Virus record (IMG/VR): IMGVR_UViG_2711768059_000001
DNA: 5,904 nt
Origin: a virus
Lineage: Duplodnaviria > Heunggongvirae > Uroviricota > Caudoviricetes
Reading direction: 5' to 3' (one strand)
Shown one piece after another: positions 1 to 5,904 of the stretch. The position numbers were made by a program, and so were the translations under genes. Within the stretch, counting starts at the first letter, position 1, and every line of letters begins with the position of its first letter. The notes beneath the pieces were generated by a model. That model had not been told where the DNA came from. It worked only from the letters and a program-made list of their open reading frames with translations, and made no database searches.

Positions 1-1
1 C

Positions 2-235
2 AGCGATACCTGGCAGGCGGAGCTGCATATCGAAGTTTTCCTGCCTGCTCAGGTGCCGGATTCAGAGCTGGATGCGTGGATGGAGTCCCGGATTTATCCG
101 GTGATGAGTGATATCCCGGCACTGTCAGATTTGATCACCAGTATGGTGGCCAGCGGCTATGACTACCGGCGCGACGATGATGCGGGCCTGTGGAGTTCAG
201 CCGATCTGACTTATGTCATTACCTATGAAATGTGA
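2..235 (+). CDS. U: Tail terminator protein gpU, 3' portion only (5' end lies upstream of the window); stop TGA at 233-235
   Basis: Frame-2 translation from position 2 reads [77 protein letters not shown], which matches my recollection of the C-terminus of lambda gpU. The ORF-track entry 53..235 is only the part after an internal Met. Position immediately upstream of V fits lambda gene order. Confidence 0.88.
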
Positions 236-238
236 GGA
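234..238 (+). promoter_or_regulatory. Shine-Dalgarno-like GAGGA upstream of the V start codon (overlaps the U stop codon)
   Basis: GAGGA at 234-238, 4-nt spacer to ATG at 243. Seen directly in sequence. Confidence 0.6.
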
Positions 239-242
239 CGCT

Positions 243-983
243 ATGCCTGTACCAAATCCTGTAATGCCGGTGAAAGGTGCCGGGACCACCCTGTGGGTTT
301 ATAAGGGGAGCGGTGACCCTTATGCGAATCCGCTTTCAGACGTTGACTGGTCGCGTCTGGCAAAAGTTAAAGACCTGACGCCCGGCGAACTGACCGCTGA
401 GTCCTATGACGACAGCTATCTCGATGATGAAGATGCAGACTGGACTGCGACCGGGCAGGGGCAGAAATCTGCCGGAGATACCAGCTTCACGCTGGCGTGG
501 ATGCCCGGAGAGCAGGGGCAGCAGGCGCTGCTGGCGTGGTTTAATGAAGGCGATACCCGTGCCTATAAAATCCGCTTCCCGAACGGCACGGTCGATGTGT
601 TCCGTGGCTGGGTCAGCAGTATCGGTAAGGCGGTGACGGCGAAGGAAGTGATCACCCGCACGGTGAAAGTCACCAATGTGGGACGTCCGTCGATGGCAGA
701 AGATCGCAGCACGGTAACAGCGGCAACCGGCATGACCGTGACGCCTGCCAGCACCTCGGTGGTGAAAGGGCAGAGCACCACGCTGACCGTGGCCTTCCAG
801 CCGGAGGGCGTAACCGACAAGAGCTTTCGTGCGGTGTCTGCGGATAAAACAAAAGCCACCGTGTCGGTCAGTGGTATGACCATCACCGTGAACGGCGTTG
901 CTGCAGGCAAGGTCAACATTCCGGTTGTATCCGGTAATGGTGAGTTTGCTGCGGTTGCAGAAATTACCGTCACCGCCAGTTAA
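243..983 (+). CDS. V: Major tail tube protein gpV (246 aa) with C-terminal Ig-like (Big_2-type) domain
   Basis: ORF translation [42 protein letters not shown]... ending ...[14 protein letters not shown] matches lambda gpV as I recall it. The track ORF starts at an upstream in-frame ATG (213), but ATG 243 has the SD and does not overlap the U coding end. Stop TAA at 981-983. Confidence 0.95.
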
Positions 984-986
984 TCC

Positions 987-992
987 GGAGAG
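987..992 (+). promoter_or_regulatory. Shine-Dalgarno-like GGAGAG upstream of the G start codon
   Basis: GGAGAG at 987-992, 6-nt spacer to ATG at 999. Seen directly in sequence. Confidence 0.6.
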
Positions 993-998
993 TCAGAG

Positions 999-1421
999 AT
1001 GTTCCTGAAAACCGAATCATTTGAACATAACGGTGTGACCGTCACGCTTTCTGAACTGTCAGCCCTGCAGCGCATTGAGCATCTCGCCCTGATGAAACGG
1101 CAGGCAGAACAGGCGGAGTCAGACAGCAACCGGAAGTTTACTGTGGAAGACGCCATCAGAACCGGCGCGTTTCTGGTGGCGATGTCCCTGTGGCATAACC
1201 ATCCGCAGAAGACGCAGATGCCGTCCATGAATGAAGCCGTTAAACAGATTGAGCAGGAAGTGCTTACCACCTGGCCCACGGAGGCAATTTCTCATGCTGA
1301 AAACGTGGTGTACCGGCTGTCTGGTATGTATGAGTTTGTGGTGAATAATGCCCCTGAACAGACAGAGGACGCCGGGCCCGCAGAGCCTGTTTCTGCGGGA
1401 AAGTGTTCGACGGTGAGCTGA
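999..1421 (+). CDS. G: Tail assembly chaperone gpG (140 aa), the product of normal frame-0 decoding
   Basis: ORF translation MFLKTESFEHNGVTVTLSELSALQRIEHLALMKRQAEQ... ending ...SAGKCSTVS matches lambda gpG. Stop TGA at 1419-1421. Located between V and H as in lambda. Confidence 0.93.
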   Translation: MFLKTESFEHNGVTVTLSELSALQRIEHLALMKRQAEQAESDSNRKFTVEDAIRTGAFLVAMSLWHNHPQKTQMPSMNEAVKQIEQEVLTTWPTEAISHAENVVYRLSGMYEFVVNNAPEQTEDAGPAEPVSAGKCSTVS

Positions 1422-1837
1422 GTTTTGCCCTGAAACTGGCGCGTGAGATGGGGCGACCCGACTGGCGTGCCATGCTTGCCGGGATGTCATCCACGGAGTA
1501 TGCCGACTGGCACCGCTTTTACAGTACCCATTATTTTCATGATGTTCTGCTGGATATGCACTTTTCCGGGCTGACGTACACCGTGCTCAGCCTGTTTTTC
1601 AGCGATCCGGATATGCATCCGCTGGATTTCAGTCTGCTGAACCGGCGCGAGGCTGACGAAGAGCCTGAAGATGATGTGCTGATGCAGAAAGCGGCAGGGC
1701 TTGCCGGAGGTGTCCGCTTTGGCCCGGACGGGAATGAAGTTATCCCCGCTTCCCCGGATGTGGCGGACATGACGGAGGATGACGTAATGCTGATGACAGT
1801 ATCAGAAGGGATCGCAGGAGGAGTCCGGTATGGCTGA
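999..1837 (+). CDS. T: Tail assembly chaperone gpG-T fusion, produced by programmed -1 ribosomal frameshift at the G GGA AAG heptamer (1397-1403); T-specific part is about 1402-1837
   Basis: Slippery heptamer GGGAAAG lies 16 nt before the G stop. The -1 frame continues open for about 144 codons (GKVFDGELSFALKLAREMGRPDWRAMLAGMSSTEYADWHRFY...GGVRYG) to TGA at 1835-1837. The T frame has no convincing independent start (the track's start at 1403 is a GTG inside the slippery region with no SD). Arrangement is the established lambda G/G-T recoding system. Confidence 0.85.
1397..1403 (+). other. Programmed -1 ribosomal frameshift slippery heptamer G GGA AAG (G to G-T recoding site)
   Basis: Heptamer read directly: frame-0 codons GGA (1398-1400) and AAG (1401-1403) preceded by G1397. 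After a -1 slip the reading is GGG AAA GTG..., continuing in the T frame. Confidence 0.82.
1816..1823 (+). promoter_or_regulatory. Shine-Dalgarno AGGAGGAG upstream of the H start codon (lies within the end of the T frame)
   Basis: AGGAGGAG at 1816-1823, 6-nt spacer to ATG at 1830. Seen directly in sequence. Confidence 0.65.
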
Positions 1838-4391
1838 ACCGGTAGGCGATCTGGTCGTTGATTTGAGTCTGGATGCGGCCAGGTTTGACGAGCAGATGGC
1901 CAGAGTCAGGCGTCATTTTTCCGGTACGGAAAGTGATGCGAAAAAAACAGCGGCAGTCGTTGAACAGTCGCTGAGCCGACAGGCGCTGGCTGCACAGAAA
2001 GCGGGGATTTCCGTCGGGCAGTATAAAGCCGCCATGCGTATGCTGCCTGCACAGTTCACCGACGTGGCCACGCAGCTTGCAGGCGGGCAAAGTCCGTGGC
2101 TGATCCTGCTGCAACAGGGTGGTCAGGTTAAGGACTCCTTCGGCGGGATGATCCCCATGTTCAGGGGGCTTGCCGGTGCGATCACCCTGCCGATGGTGGG
2201 GGCCACCTCGCTGGCGGTGGCGACCGGTGCGCTGGCGTATGCCTGGTATCAGGGCAACTCAACCCTGTCCGATTTCAACAAAACGCTGGTCCTTTCCGGC
2301 AATCAGGCGGGACTGACGGCAGATCGTATGCTGGTCCTGTCCAGAGCCGGGCAGGCGGCAGGGCTGACGTTTAACCAGACCAGCGAGTCACTCAGCGCAC
2401 TGGTTAAGGCGGGGGTAAGCGGTGAGGCTCAGATTGCGTCCATCAGCCAGAGTGTGGCGCGTTTCTCCTCTGCATCCGGCGTGGAGGTGGACAAGGTCGC
2501 TGAAGCCTTCGGGAAGCTGACCACAGACCCGACGTCGGGGCTGACGGCGATGGCACGCCAGTTCCATAACGTGACGGCGGAGCAGATTGCGTATGTTGCT
2601 CAGTTGCAGCGTTCCGGCGATGAAGCCGGGGCATTGCAGGCGGCGAACGAGGCCGCAACGAAAGGGTTTGATGACCAGACCCGCCGCCTGAAAGAGAACA
2701 TGGGCACGCTGGAGACCTGGGCAGACAGGACTGCGCGGGCCTTCAAATCCATGTGGGATGCGGTGCTGGATATTGGTCGTCCTGATACCGCGCAGGAGAT
2801 GCTGATTAAGGCAGAGGCTGCGTTTAAGAAAGCAGACGACATCTGGAATCTGCGCAAGGATGATTATTTTGTTAACGATGAAGCGCGGGCGCGTTACTGG
2901 GATGATCGTGAAAAGGCCCGTCTTGCGCTTGAAGCCGCCCGAAAGAAGGCTGAGCAGCAGACTCAACAGGACAAAAATGCGCAGCAGCAGAGCGATACCG
3001 AAGCGTCACGGCTGAAATATACCGAAGAGGCGCAGAAGGCTTACGAACGGCTGCAGACGCCGCTGGAGAAATATACCGCCCGTCAGGAAGAACTGAACAA
3101 GGCACTGAAAGACGGGAAAATCCTGCAGGCGGATTACAACACGCTGATGGCGGCGGCGAAAAAGGATTATGAAGCGACGCTGAAAAAGCCGAAACAGTCC
3201 GGCGTGAAGGTGTCTGCGGGCGATCGTCAGGAAGACAGTGCTCATGCTGCCCTGCTGACGCTTCAGGCAGAACTCCGGACGCTGGAGAAGCATGCCGGAG
3301 CAAATGAGAAAATCAGCCAGCAGCGCCGGGATTTGTGGAAGGCAGAAAGTCAGTTCGCGGTACTGGAGGAGGCGGCACAACGTCGCCAGCTATCCGCACA
3401 GGAGAAATCCCTGCTGGCGCATAAAGATGAGACGCTGGAGTACAAACGCCAGCTGGCTGCACTTGGCGACAAGGTTACGTATCAGGAGCGCCTGAACGCG
3501 CTGGCGCAGCAGGCGGATAAATTCGCACAGCAGCAACGGGCAAAACGGGCCGCCATTGATGCGAAAAGCCGGGGGCTGACTGACCGGCAGGCAGAACGGG
3601 AAGCCACGGAACAGCGCCTGAAGGAACAGTATGGCGATAATCCGCTGGCGCTGAATAACGTCATGTCAGAGCAGAAAAAGACCTGGGCGGCTGAAGACCA
3701 GCTTCGCGGGAGCTGGATGGCAGGCCTGAAGTCCGGCTGGAGTGAGTGGGAAGAGAGCGCCACGGACAGTATGTCGCAGGTAAAAAGTGCAGCCACGCAG
3801 ACCTTTGATGGTATTGCACAGAATATGGCAGCGATGCTGACCGGCAGTGAGCAGAACTGGCGCAGCTTCACCCGTTCCGTGCTGTCCATGATGACAGAAA
3901 TTCTGCTTAAGCAGGCAATGGTGGGGATTGTCGGGAGTATCGGCAGCGCCATTGGCGGGGCTGTTGGTGGCGGCGCATCCGCGTCAGGCGGTACAGCCAT
4001 TCAGGCCGCTGCGGCGAAATTCCATTTTGCAACCGGAGGATTTACGGGAACCGGCGGCAAATATGAGCCAGCGGGGATTGTTCACCGTGGTGAGTTTGTC
4101 TTCACGAAGGAGGCAACCAGCCGGATTGGCGTGGGGAATCTTTACCGGCTGATGCGCGGCTATGCCACCGGCGGTTATGTCGGTACACCGGGCAGCATGG
4201 CAGACAGCCGGTCGCAGGCGTCCGGGACGTTTGAGCAGAATAACCATGTGGTGATTAACAACGACGGCACGAACGGGCAGATAGGTCCGGCTGCTCTGAA
4301 GGCGGTGTATGACATGGCCCGCAAGGGTGCCCGTGATGAAATTCAGACACAGATGCGTGATGGTGGCCTGTTCTCCGGAGGTGGACGATGA
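1830..4391 (+). CDS. H: Tail tape measure protein gpH (853 aa)
   Basis: 853-aa ORF beginning MAEPVGDLVVDLSLDAARFDEQMARVRRHF... matches lambda gpH. Long charged A/E/K/Q/R-rich central region typical of tape measure proteins, glycine-rich hydrophobic C-terminal segment. Start ATG overlaps the T stop (ATGGCTGA) and the stop overlaps the M start (ATGA). Confidence 0.96.
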   Translation: MAEPVGDLVVDLSLDAARFDEQMARVRRHFSGTESDAKKTAAVVEQSLSRQALAAQKAGISVGQYKAAMRMLPAQFTDVATQLAGGQSPWLILLQQGGQVKDSFGGMIPMFRGLAGAITLPMVGATSLAVATGALAYAWYQGNSTLSDFNKTLVLSGNQAGLTADRMLVLSRAGQAAGLTFNQTSESLSALVKAGVSGEAQIASISQSVARFSSASGVEVDKVAEAFGKLTTDPTSGLTAMARQFHNVTAEQIAYVAQLQRSGDEAGALQAANEAATKGFDDQTRRLKENMGTLETWADRTARAFKSMWDAVLDIGRPDTAQEMLIKAEAAFKKADDIWNLRKDDYFVNDEARARYWDDREKARLALEAARKKAEQQTQQDKNAQQQSDTEASRLKYTEEAQKAYERLQTPLEKYTARQEELNKALKDGKILQADYNTLMAAAKKDYEATLKKPKQSGVKVSAGDRQEDSAHAALLTLQAELRTLEKHAGANEKISQQRRDLWKAESQFAVLEEAAQRRQLSAQEKSLLAHKDETLEYKRQLAALGDKVTYQERLNALAQQADKFAQQQRAKRAAIDAKSRGLTDRQAEREATEQRLKEQYGDNPLALNNVMSEQKKTWAAEDQLRGSWMAGLKSGWSEWEESATDSMSQVKSAATQTFDGIAQNMAAMLTGSEQNWRSFTRSVLSMMTEILLKQAMVGIVGSIGSAIGGAVGGGASASGGTAIQAAAAKFHFATGGFTGTGGKYEPAGIVHRGEFVFTKEATSRIGVGNLYRLMRGYATGGYVGTPGSMADSRSQASGTFEQNNHVVINNDGTNGQIGPAALKAVYDMARKGARDEIQTQMRDGGLFSGGGR

Positions 4392-4717
4392 AGACCTTCC
4401 GCTGGAAAGTGAAACCCGGTATGGATGTGGCTTCGGTCCCTTCTGTAAGAAAGGTGCGCTTTGGTGATGGCTATTCTCAGCGAGCGCCTGCCGGGCTGAA
4501 TGCCAACCTGAAAACGTACAGCGTGACGCTTTCTGTCCCCCGTGAGGAGGCCACGGTACTGGAGTCGTTTCTGGAAGAGCACGGGGGCTGGAAATCCTTT
4601 CTGTGGACGCCGCCTTATGAGTGGCGGCAGATAAAGGTGACCTGCGCAAAATGGTCGTCGCGGGTCAGTATGCTGCGTGTTGAGTTCAGCGCAGAGTTTG
4701 AACAGGTGGTGAACTGA
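4388..4717 (+). CDS. M: Tail tip assembly protein gpM (109 aa)
   Basis: ORF MKTFRWKVKPGMDVASVPSVRKVRFGDGYSQRAPAGLNANLKTYSVTLSV... matches lambda gpM. Start overlaps H stop by 4 nt, stop TGA at 4715-4717 overlaps the L start. Confidence 0.93.
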   Translation: MKTFRWKVKPGMDVASVPSVRKVRFGDGYSQRAPAGLNANLKTYSVTLSVPREEATVLESFLEEHGGWKSFLWTPPYEWRQIKVTCAKWSSRVSMLRVEFSAEFEQVVN

Positions 4718-5415
4718 TGCAGGATATCCGGCAGGAAACACTGAATGAATGCACCCGTGCGGAGCAGTCGGCCAGCGTGGTGCTCTGGGAAATCGACCTG
4801 ACAGAGGTCGGTGGAGAACGTTATTTTTTCTGTAATGAGCAGAACGAAAAAGGTGAGCCGGTCACCTGGCAGGGGCGACAGTATCAGCCGTATCCCATTC
4901 AGGGGAGCGGTTTTGAACTGAATGGCAAAGGCACCAGTACGCGCCCCACGCTGACGGTTTCTAACCTGTACGGTATGGTCACCGGGATGGCGGAAGACCT
5001 GCAGAGTCTGGTCGGCGGAACGGTGGTCAGGCGTAAGGTTTACGCCCGTTTTCTGGATGCGGTGAACTTCGTCAACGGAAACAGCGAAGCCGATCCGGAG
5101 CAGGAGGTGATCAGCCGCTGGCGCATCGAGCAGTGCAGCGAACTGAGCGCGGTCAGTGTCTCTTTTGTACTGTCCACACCGACTGAAACGGATGGCTCTG
5201 TTTTTCCGGGGCGTATCATGCTGGCCAACACCTGCACCTGGACCTATCGCGGCGATGAGTGCGGTTATAGCGGTCCGGCGGTCGCGGATGAATATGACCA
5301 GCCGACGTCCGATATCACGAAGGATAAATGCAGCAAATGCCTGAGCGGCTGTAAGTTTCGCAATAACGTCGGCAACTTTGGCGGCTTCCTTTCCATTAAC
5401 AAACTTTCGCAGTAA
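4717..5415 (+). CDS. L: Tail tip assembly protein gpL (232 aa); C-terminal cysteine cluster (CTWTYRGDECGYSG...CSKCLSGC) consistent with a metal/Fe-S binding site
   Basis: ORF MQDIRQETLNECTRAEQSASVVLWEIDLTEVGGERYFFCNEQ... matches lambda gpL. ATG at 4717 shares its A with the M stop codon (TGATG). Stop TAA at 5413-5415. Confidence 0.93.
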   Translation: MQDIRQETLNECTRAEQSASVVLWEIDLTEVGGERYFFCNEQNEKGEPVTWQGRQYQPYPIQGSGFELNGKGTSTRPTLTVSNLYGMVTGMAEDLQSLVGGTVVRRKVYARFLDAVNFVNGNSEADPEQEVISRWRIEQCSELSAVSVSFVLSTPTETDGSVFPGRIMLANTCTWTYRGDECGYSGPAVADEYDQPTSDITKDKCSKCLSGCKFRNNVGNFGGFLSINKLSQ

Positions 5416-5419
5416 TCCC

Positions 5420-5904
5420 ATGACAGAGACAGAATCAGCGATTCTGGCGCACGCCCGGCGATGTGCGCCAGCGGAGTCGTGCGGCTTCGTGGTGAGAGCG
5501 CCGGAGGGGGAAAGATATTTTCCCTGCGTGAATATCTCCGGTGAGCCGGAGGCGTATTTCCGGATGTCGCCGGAGGACTGGCTGCGGGCAGAGATGCAGG
5601 GTGAGATTGTGGCGCTGGTCCACAGCCACCCCGGTGGTCTGCCCTGGCTGAGTGAGACCGACCGGCGGCTGCAGGTGCAGAGTGATTTGCCGTGGTGGCT
5701 GGTTTGCCGGGGGGCGATTCACAAGTTCCGCTGTGTGCCGCATCTCACCGGGCGGCGCTTTGAGCACGGGGTGACGGACTGTTACACGCTGTTCCGGGAT
5801 GCTTATCATCTGGCGGGGATTGAGATGCCGGATTTTCATCGCGAGAGTACCGGGGGTGGGTCCGGGCAGAAGCACGATATGGCTATACATGAGGCGCAAA
5901 GGGG
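5420..5904 (+). CDS. K: Tail tip assembly protein gpK, 5' portion (runs off the window end); N-terminal JAMM/MPN-type metalloprotease motif and start of an NlpC/P60-like domain. Start codon uncertain: 5420 (preferred) or internal ATG at 5564
   Basis: Open frame from ATG 5420 (4 nt after L stop) reads MTETESAILAHARRCAPAESCGFVV...EIVALVHSHPGGLPWLSETDRRLQ...GVTDCYTLFRDAY... It contains E-x-C-G (E19), H68-x-H70, S78 and D81, i.e. a complete JAMM motif, followed by a D-C-Y cysteine typical of NlpC/P60 (Cys about residue 121). Position after L fits lambda order. Confidence 0.85.
   Translation, partial: MTETESAILAHARRCAPAESCGFVVRAPEGERYFPCVNISGEPEAYFRMSPEDWLRAEMQGEIVALVHSHPGGLPWLSETDRRLQVQSDLPWWLVCRGAIHKFRCVPHLTGRRFEHGVTDCYTLFRDAYHLAGIEMPDFHRESTGGGSGQKHDMAIHEAQR

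What the first reader, a model, noticed from the sequence alone, without database searches (positions are those of the whole stretch)
1390..1421. Programmed -1 frameshift site joining G to T (slippery heptamer G GGA AAG)
The heptamer GGGAAAG at 1397-1403 sits 16 nt upstream of the G stop. The -1 frame then stays open for about 144 codons to a stop that overlaps the H start. This is the conserved G/G-T tail chaperone recoding arrangement described for lambda, where a small fraction of ribosomes shift to make the fusion. The six-frame track lists the T frame as a separate GTG-start ORF, which is a mis-parse of this event.
Basis: partly seen in the sequence, partly recalled or inferred. Interest (0 to 1): 0.45.

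Follow-up and report, generated by a model that had tools for sequence, protein, structure and literature searches.

The report
Phage lambda G/GT tail-chaperone frameshift site

Summary
The window is a lambda-type tail gene block (end of U, then V, G, T, H, M, L and the start of K), about 99% identical to phage lambda. Bases 998-1882, which hold all of G, all of T and the slip site, are identical to lambda. GGGAAAG lies at 1397-1403 in the G_GGA_AAG register of gene G (999-1421). The -1 frame then runs 144 codons to TGA 1835-1837, which overlaps the ATG of the tape measure gene H (1830).

This is lambda's own G/GT site (lambda 10109-10115). It has been characterised experimentally since Levin, Hendrix and Casjens (1993): about 4% frameshifting, a gpG:gpGT ratio near 30:1, and sensitivity to tRNA-Lys modification.

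- G matches Pfam Phage_TAC_2 and T matches Phage_tail_T, between the tail tube and tape measure genes.
- GTG 1403 has no usable Shine-Dalgarno sequence.
- All 60 distinct G/T junctions from phages and enterobacterial prophages keep an N_NNA_AA(G/A) motif in the same register.
- In all 60 the T frame is open and shows coding-type variation from the first codon after the slip. Only 2 of 60 have a start codon there.
- A predicted downstream hairpin is not conserved across the family.

Verdict: real, correctly interpreted, already known.

The parts
999..1421 (+). [quoted passage not shown]
   Evidence: ORF. Pfam PF06894 Phage_TAC_2, E = 9e-62. Identical to lambda G 9711-10133.
1397..1403 (+). Slippery heptamer G_GGA_AAG, where the P-site tRNA-Gly and A-site tRNA-Lys re-pair to GGG AAA in the -1 frame
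   Evidence: Sequence and register. Equals lambda 10109-10115. Named as the slip site in PMC3296357 and PMC7618472. A4-A6 are invariant and the motif stays in register in all 60 distinct relatives.
1403..1837 (+). The T segment: the -1 frame part of gpGT (144 codons plus TGA). It is translated only as the C-terminal half of the 279-aa G-T fusion.
   Evidence: One search gives the frame and the fusion. Pfam PF06223 Phage_tail_T, E = 2e-14, alone and within the fusion. No usable SD before GTG 1403. In relatives a start codon is present here in only 2 of 60.
1419..1421 (+). G stop codon (TGA), bypassed by ribosomes that have shifted
   Evidence: Its distance from the motif varies among relatives (16, 4, 1 or 0 nt by the call-30/57 measure) while the motif stays fixed.
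1358..1402 (+). Upstream part of the G/T overlap where the -1 frame is already open. It holds no other in-register slippery motif.
   Evidence: The -1 frame opens after TGA 1355-1357. Only one in-register motif was found in the overlap of lambda-type copies.
243..983 (+). Gene V, the major tail tube protein and binding partner of the T domain. It gives the gene-order context upstream of G.
   Evidence: Pfam Phage_TTP_12 plus Big_2. Lambda V annotation.
1830..4391 (+). Gene H, the tape measure protein and binding partner of the G domain. Its ATG overlaps the end of T by 8 nt.
   Evidence: Pfam TMP_2 plus Tape_meas_lam_C. Strong SD (AGGAGG, -10.3 kcal/mol, 7-nt spacer).
1411..1481 (+). Predicted branched hairpin starting 7 nt after the heptamer. 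Probably not a required stimulator.
   Evidence: MFE -38.7 kcal/mol, z = -2.1. Kept in 12 close relatives but no better than shuffles in 60 relatives.

Best explanation
This is the programmed -1 ribosomal frameshift site of a lambda-type phage. It produces two tail assembly chaperones from one translation start.

Ribosomes begin at the G ATG (999). Most read GCG GGA AAG TGT ... and stop at TGA 1419, making gpG (140 aa). In a small fraction (about 3-4% in lambda), the P-site tRNA-Gly on GGA and the A-site tRNA-Lys on AAG slip back one base and re-pair with GGG and AAA. The next codon read is then GTG at 1403, and translation continues in the -1 frame for 144 codons to TGA 1835. The product is gpGT (279 aa, junction ...SAGK-VFDGEL...).

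The shared G part binds the tape measure protein H. The T part binds the tail tube protein V and recruits it. The fixed slip frequency sets the roughly 30:1 gpG:gpGT ratio that tail assembly needs. Neither protein ends up in the virion.

What was shown here: the sequence, its register, the frames, the domain content, the lack of an independent start signal, identity to lambda, and conservation. What is taken from published lambda experiments on the identical sequence: the slip frequency, the protein interactions and the requirement for the ratio.
For: - Identity to lambda. The whole window is about 99% identical to lambda and its relatives. Bases 998-1882 have no mismatch to NC_001416, so lambda's experimental results apply directly.
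- Anatomy. G_GGA_AAG is in the zero-frame register 5 codons before the G stop, and the -1 frame is open for 144 codons up to the H start.
- Domains. G is Phage_TAC_2 and T is Phage_tail_T. Both are found in the conceptual fusion, which lies between the tail tube gene V and the tape measure gene H.
- No independent start for T. The duplex with the anti-SD before GTG 1403 is only -4.3 kcal/mol, with a 1-nt spacer; about 40% of all window positions score as well. The real starts of V, G, H, M and L score -5.9 to -10.8 kcal/mol.
- Conservation. In 79 loci analysed, reduced to 60 distinct junctions with 12 phage loci added, at 28-100% protein identity, the heptamers are GGAAAAG 49, GGGAAAG 4, GGTAAAG 3, AGAAAAG 2, GGCAAAA 1 and GGGAAAA 1, always in the same register.
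- Frames in relatives. The T frame is open in 60 of 60 and the zero frame stops within 32 codons in 60 of 60.
- Coding signal. Column entropy by T-frame codon position is 0.66, 0.50 and 1.34 from the first codon after the slip, which shows the T frame is the coding frame there.
- Start codons in relatives. Only 2 of 60 have a start-capable codon at the slip. In many, the first one comes after the conserved ELxF..LAREF residues.
- Codon choice. GGA is 12% of Gly codons and AAG is 43% of Lys codons in these genes. Encoding x-Gly-Lys as G_GGA_AAG has a chance of about 2%.
- Literature. GGGAAAG is given as the lambda G/GT slippery sequence, with about 96% of ribosomes staying in frame and tRNA-Lys s2U34 hypomodification raising gpGT (PMC3296357). 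G_GGA_AAG is named in PMC7618472. The 30:1 ratio, G binding H, T binding V and absence from virions are in PMC5009743. A_AAG is the most shift-prone tetramer in E. coli (PMC4066793).
Against: Nothing found here contradicts the explanation. There are three limits. No expression data exist for this particular phage, which differs from lambda at 82 aligned positions plus small indels, all outside 998-1882. Several database records, including RefSeq lambda, annotate T as a free-standing GTG-start CDS, and one even marks an 'RBS' inside the heptamer; these are annotation conventions, not evidence. The primary papers (Levin 1993; Xu 2004, 2013, 2014) could not be opened here, so their content is cited only through reviews and papers that are held.
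Confidence: 0.97

Rival explanations
1. T is a separate gene that starts independently at GTG 1403, as drawn in RefSeq lambda and in the mechanical ORF list. On this view the heptamer is incidental.
For: the ORF listing reports a GTG-start ORF 1403-1837. NC_001416 and several other records annotate T as its own CDS. One record marks a 3-nt 'RBS' at the GGG of the heptamer.
Against: There is no usable SD: -4.3 kcal/mol with a 1-nt spacer, no better than 40% of random positions. The codon at this position is start-capable in only 2 of 60 distinct relatives; the others have GCC, GTC, GTA, GCT or ATA. Even so, the T-frame residues right after it are conserved and show coding-type third-position variation. 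The published work cited treats the T frame as expressed through the frameshift as gpGT.
Confidence: 0.02
2. The shift into the T frame happens during transcription. RNA polymerase slips on the short A run and makes an mRNA with one base more or less, rather than the ribosome slipping.
For: The site contains a homopolymeric stretch (GGG AAA), and transcriptional slippage is used at other loci reviewed in PMC5009743.
Against: The runs are only 3 nt long. From general knowledge, productive polymerase slippage needs runs of about 7-9 A or T. Frameshift level at this site responds to tRNA-Lys U34 thiolation, which is a property of translation (PMC3296357). What is conserved among relatives is the codon register of A_AAG (60 of 60), not run length.
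Confidence: 0.01
3. The frameshift is real but depends on a downstream mRNA structure (1411-1481, 7 nt after the heptamer) as a stimulator, as in dnaX or IS911.
For: A branched hairpin is predicted at canonical spacing, with MFE -38.7 kcal/mol and z = -2.1 (9 of 200 shuffles fold as well). RNAalifold keeps it in 12 relatives, with compensatory changes at 4 pairs.
Against: In 60 distinct relatives, 77.4% of cells pair against 74.9% in shuffles. The number of pairs with double changes is 7 against 7.2 expected, and many pairs are broken in 10-31 sequences. The region encodes the most conserved part of T, so sequence conservation is explained by the protein. [quoted passage not shown]
Confidence: 0.1

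Closest known systems
Phage lambda G/GT programmed -1 frameshift (Levin, Hendrix and Casjens 1993, J Mol Biol 234:124; lambda coordinates 10109-10115)
   Same: Everything relevant is the same. G, T, the heptamer and the overlap with H are base-for-base identical (window 998-1882 equals lambda 9710-10594), with the same flanking genes V and H.
   Different: The host phage is not the lambda reference. There are 82 mismatches and small indels elsewhere in the window, mostly in H, L and K. K is a continuous ORF from 5420, and the last 59 nt are unrelated to lambda.
N15 / HK97 / HK225 / phi80 / Gifsy-1-type G-T homologues, part of the conserved tail-chaperone frameshift of long-tailed dsDNA phages (Xu, Hendrix and Duda 2004, Mol Cell 16:11)
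   Same: The gene order is the same (tube, chaperone, -1 extension, tape measure). The G and T families are homologous. The A_AAG is in the same register, and the -1 ORF ends at the tape measure start.
   Different: Most use G_GAA_AAG rather than G_GGA_AAG, so the P-site re-pairing is near-cognate. The G stop is 0-16 nt from the motif by the call-30/57 measure. Their T lacks lambda's roughly 35-aa C-terminal repeat extension.
E. coli dnaX (tau/gamma) and IS3-family (IS911) -1 frameshift sites
   Same: Both are tandem -1 slippage on a heptamer ending in A_AAG, decoded by the single E. coli tRNA-Lys (mnm5s2UUU). They yield two products in a fixed ratio (PMC5009743, PMC4066793).
   Different: Those sites reach high efficiency with an upstream SD-like element and a downstream hairpin or pseudoknot. 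Here no SD-like element precedes the heptamer, no conserved downstream structure was found, and efficiency is only a few percent.
Retroviral gag / gag-pol -1 frameshift
   Same: The logic is the same. A minor C-terminally extended fusion is made from the same start as the major product, in a ratio of about 20-30:1 that matters for particle assembly (PMC7618472).
   Different: The retroviral sites are eukaryotic, use U_UUU_UUA or similar motifs, need an RNA stimulator, and extend the product with enzymes rather than a chaperone domain.

Membership tests
Lambda-type G/GT tail assembly chaperone with programmed -1 frameshift | Two overlapping ORFs lie between the major tail (tube) gene and the tape measure gene, with the second in the -1 frame of the first | tested here: met
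   V 243-983, G 999-1421, T frame 1358-1837, H 1830-4391.
Lambda-type G/GT tail assembly chaperone with programmed -1 frameshift | [quoted passage not shown] | tested here: met
   G_GGA_AAG at 1397-1403, 5 codons before the G stop. It is the only in-register motif in the overlap.
Lambda-type G/GT tail assembly chaperone with programmed -1 frameshift | Sequence homology of the two parts to gpG and gpT | tested here: met
   PF06894 at E = 9e-62 and PF06223 at E = 2e-14. 100% nucleotide identity to lambda G and T.
Lambda-type G/GT tail assembly chaperone with programmed -1 frameshift | The downstream ORF has no translation start signals of its own | tested here: met
   Weak SD with a 1-nt spacer before GTG 1403. 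A start codon is present at this position in only 2 of 60 relatives.
Lambda-type G/GT tail assembly chaperone with programmed -1 frameshift | The arrangement is conserved in relatives despite sequence divergence | tested here: met
   All 60 distinct junctions keep the motif in register, an open T frame and a closed zero frame.
Lambda-type G/GT tail assembly chaperone with programmed -1 frameshift | A G-T fusion protein is actually produced at a low fixed frequency (about 3-4%) and is required for tail assembly | not testable with these tools
   Established experimentally for the identical lambda sequence according to PMC3296357, PMC5009743 and PMC7618472. No expression data exist for this window's phage.
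dnaX / IS3-type stimulated -1 frameshift | An internal Shine-Dalgarno-like element about 10 nt upstream of the heptamer | tested here: not met
   The 20 nt upstream (GAGCCUGUUUCUGCGGGAAA) pair with the anti-SD only through the heptamer's own GGGA, at -4.3 kcal/mol.
dnaX / IS3-type stimulated -1 frameshift | A conserved hairpin or pseudoknot 5-9 nt downstream of the heptamer | tested here: inconclusive
   A hairpin is predicted in lambda (z = -2.1) and kept in close relatives. It is no better than shuffles across 60 relatives.

The most novel reading that the evidence does not exclude
In the lambda / N15 / phi80 subgroup, the branched hairpin predicted 7 nt downstream of the heptamer (window 1411-1481) may modestly tune frameshift efficiency. 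That would mean the site is not entirely free of stimulators, as the reviews describe it. The evidence does not exclude this for the subgroup. It only shows that the structure is not conserved across the wider family.
Probability: 0.1. Interest if true: 0.2.

Novelty: already known. Interest (0 to 1): 0.06.

Why it matters
The result matters mainly as a correct call on a classic feature. The G/GT frameshift is the founding example of the recoding event conserved in the tail chaperone genes of most long-tailed phages, and it sets a protein ratio that tail assembly depends on.

In practice it is an annotation point. The 144-codon 'T' ORF should be annotated as a joined G-T CDS with ribosomal slippage, not as a free-standing GTG-start gene. 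Several public records, RefSeq lambda among them, still show it as a separate gene.

The finding opens no new biological question.

Tried and rejected
- Downstream stimulatory RNA structure. This looked promising in lambda alone and in 12 relatives. It was rejected as a family-wide feature after the set was enlarged to 60 distinct junctions: pairing 77% against 75% in shuffles, and compensatory pairs 7 against 7.2.
- Independent initiation of T at GTG 1403. Rejected on SD strength and spacing and on the absence of a start codon in 58 of 60 relatives.
- Other slippery sites in the window. Only T_TTT_TTC at 4824 in L is in register, and it leads to a 1-codon -1 ORF. The second GGGAAAG at 5508 is out of register in K.
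- The search for related loci with the G protein alone in viral contigs returned only 99-100% identical copies, which were useless for conservation. Divergent loci came from tblastn against phage records and from a profile scan of genome contigs.
- Primary papers. An attempt to read Xu et al. 2013 (PMC3762263) failed because it is not held, and Levin 1993 is not open. Their content is cited only through papers that are held.
- Origin of the last 59 nt of the window. No match in phages or in complete E. coli genomes. Left unexplained.

Full report
**What the window is.** The 5904-bp window carries, on the + strand, the end of a U-like gene, then V (243-983), G (999-1421), an overlapping -1 frame ORF (1403-1837), H (1830-4391), M (4388-4717), L (4717-5415) and the start of K. 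Pfam assigns:
- V to the lambda tail tube family plus a Big_2 domain;
- G to PF06894 'lambda tail assembly chaperone G' (E = 9e-62);
- the -1 ORF to PF06223 'minor tail protein T' (E = 2e-14);
- H to the tape measure families, and M and L to their lambda families.

Megablast against 50,697 phage records gives about 99% identity over 1-5845 to lambda, HK630, HK629, DE3 and many others. A base-by-base alignment to NC_001416 (window position = lambda position - 8712) shows 82 mismatches and a few small indels. None of them lies between 998 and 1882. G, T, the slip site and the start of H are therefore identical to lambda.

**Checking the observation.** Bases 1397-1403 read GGGAAAG. Because (1397-999) mod 3 = 2, the G frame reads GCG GGA AAG TGT TCG ACG GTG AGC TGA, so the heptamer is in the X_XXY_YYZ register. 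Five sense codons separate it from the stop at 1419-1421.

The -1 frame opens after a TGA at 1355-1357 and stays open to the TGA at 1835-1837. Counted from base 1403 it holds 144 sense codons. The H ATG is at 1830-1832, so the T frame overlaps H by 8 nt. The conceptual fusion is 279 aa, with junction ...PVSAGK|VFDGEL..., and it contains both Pfam domains. All statements in the finding are correct.

**Is it more than chance?** A heptamer on its own is unremarkable: nine XXXYYYZ strings with Y = A or T occur in the window. Only two are in the slippery register of a gene. The other, T_TTT_TTC at 4824 in L, opens a 1-codon -1 ORF.

A -1 frame open for at least 144 codons is found from 0.35% of codon positions in V, H, M and L, and in 47 of 20,000 shuffles of the T region. 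Encoding x-Gly-Lys as G_GGA_AAG needs the minor Gly codon GGA (12% of Gly codons here) and AAG (43% of Lys codons). That is about a 2% chance under the genes' own codon usage.

**Independent start for T?** The 20 nt before GTG 1403 pair with the anti-SD only through the heptamer's own GGGA. The duplex is -4.3 kcal/mol with a 1-nt spacer, and about 40% of all window positions do as well. The real starts of V, G, H, M and L score -5.9 to -10.8 kcal/mol, with spacers of 3-7 nt.

**Comparative evidence.** I collected divergent G/T loci from two sources:
- tblastn against phage records, which gave 12 loci at 28-100% G identity, including HK225, phi80, mEp043, cdtI, Gifsy-1, and Klebsiella and Providencia phages;
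- a T-profile scan of one genome per species, which gave 80 loci across Enterobacterales.

Of the 79 profile-scan loci analysed, 77 showed an in-register motif in the automatic scan. The two exceptions were inspected by eye. One is a decayed Shigella copy that still has GGGAAAG. The other is a Kluyvera prophage with G_GCA_AAA directly before the stop.

After removing duplicates, 60 distinct junctions align without gaps. One search gives these counts:
- The heptamers are GGAAAAG 49, GGGAAAG 4, GGTAAAG 3, AGAAAAG 2, GGCAAAA 1 and GGGAAAA 1. The three A's are invariant.
- The T frame is open for the next 32 codons in 60 of 60. The zero frame hits a stop in 60 of 60, and the +1 frame does so in 58 of 60.
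- Column entropy by T-frame codon position is 0.66, 0.50 and 1.34. The T frame is therefore under protein-coding constraint from the first codon after the slip.
- The codon at the slip is start-capable in only 2 of 60. In many relatives the first ATG/GTG/TTG lies at codon 10 or 24, downstream of the conserved ELxF..LAREF residues. Those residues can only be translated by ribosomes arriving from G.
- The distance from the motif to the G stop varies (16, 4, 1 or 0 nt by the call-30/57 measure) while the motif stays in place, so the motif is what is conserved.

The conserved core A_AAG is the most shift-prone tetramer in E. coli (PMC4066793).

**What is known.** The papers held here identify this exact site.
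- PMC3296357 lists 'Lambda phage GGGAAAG G/GT'. It states that the zero frame is kept about 96% of the time and shows that loss of tRNA-Lys U34 thiolation raises gpGT and lowers phage yield.
- PMC7618472 writes the site as G_GGA_AAG.
- PMC5009743 describes a 30:1 gpG:gpGT ratio as crucial for tail assembly. The G part binds the tape measure protein H, the T part binds the tube protein V, and neither protein is in virions. [quoted passage not shown]

All of these cite Levin, Hendrix and Casjens 1993, and Xu, Hendrix and Duda 2004, 2013 and 2014. I could not open those papers.

**Mechanism.** Shown here: the register, the frames, the domains, the absence of an independent start, and conservation. 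Taken from published work on the identical sequence: tandem slippage of tRNA-Gly (GGA to GGG) and tRNA-Lys (AAG to AAA) in about 3-4% of ribosomes, which yields gpGT, and the chaperone roles of the two products.

**Downstream structure.** RNAfold predicts a branched hairpin that begins 7 nt after the heptamer (1411-1481; -38.7 kcal/mol; z = -2.1). In 12 relatives it is kept, with some compensatory pairs. In the 60-sequence set, pairing is 77.4% against 74.9% for shuffles. Pairs with double changes number 7 against 7.2 expected, and many pairs are broken. I conclude that it is not a conserved stimulator, which agrees with the literature. A modest tuning role in the lambda subgroup cannot be excluded.

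**Rivals.**
- Independent initiation at GTG 1403 is rejected, as described above.
- Transcriptional slippage is unlikely. The homopolymer runs are only 3 nt, the effect depends on tRNA modification, and what is conserved is codon register rather than run length.

**Annotation.** RefSeq lambda (NC_001416) and many other records still list T as a separate CDS 10115-10549. Others label the same CDS 'tail assembly protein GT' or 'frameshift product GT' without joining it.

**Verdict.** The feature is already known and is in fact the type example of its class. Interest is low.

Noticed in passing
window 5846-5904: The last 59 nt of the window match nothing in 50,697 phage records or 5,426 complete E. 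coli genomes, even with word-11 blastn. Lambda-like identity stops abruptly at 5845 inside gene K, although the K reading frame stays open through the foreign stretch. This could be a mosaic or recombination junction, an insertion end, or an assembly or cloning junction.
   Followed up: partly
window 5420-5845 (compare lambda 14133-14557): K is a continuous ORF here, starting at ATG 5420, 5 nt after the L stop. It has an N-terminal Prok-JAB domain (E = 7.5e-15). This matches E. coli prophages, where K is annotated as a 247-aa C40 family peptidase. Reference lambda differs by two 1-nt indels (at window 5413/5414 and 5554) that break this frame, and its K is annotated only from 14276 (window 5564).
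   Followed up: partly
window 1745-1834 (T residues about 115-144): Lambda-type T proteins carry a C-terminal extension of about 35 aa that repeats the motif G(L/I)AGGVR(F/Y)G. The N15, phi80, cdtI and Gifsy-1 type T proteins end after the first copy (alignment A3). It looks like an internal duplication at the very end of gpGT.
   Followed up: no
loci L096-L110, L123, L129, L152: Near-identical lambda G/T sequence turns up on short contigs, several labelled with about 1x coverage, in assemblies of unrelated organisms (Neobacillus, Oceanobacillus, Kitasatospora, Shewanella, Leeuwenhoekiella, Chromatium, Pseudoxanthomonas, Psychrobacter and others). This is most likely lambda control or ladder DNA contaminating those assemblies.
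   Followed up: no
window 4824-4830: T_TTT_TTC sits in the slippery register of gene L, but the -1 frame closes after one codon. It is probably just a chance heptamer. It would give a truncated L if used.
   Followed up: yes
window 213-245: The start of V is ambiguous. The longest ORF starts at ATG 213 (256 aa, as in the original J02459 annotation and in HK630). RefSeq lambda starts V at ATG 243 (246 aa), which has a GAGGA Shine-Dalgarno sequence just upstream.
   Followed up: partly
loci L149, L150, L155, L168, L170, L172, L156, L169: Some relatives carry non-canonical slip motifs: A_GAA_AAG (Morganella), G_GTA_AAG (Pantoea and an Enterobacterales MAG), G_GCA_AAA directly before the stop (Kluyvera) and G_GGA_AAA (Providencia rustigianii). 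In these the P-site tRNA cannot re-pair well, which suggests single-tRNA A-site slippage on A_AAG or A_AAA is enough in this family.
   Followed up: partly
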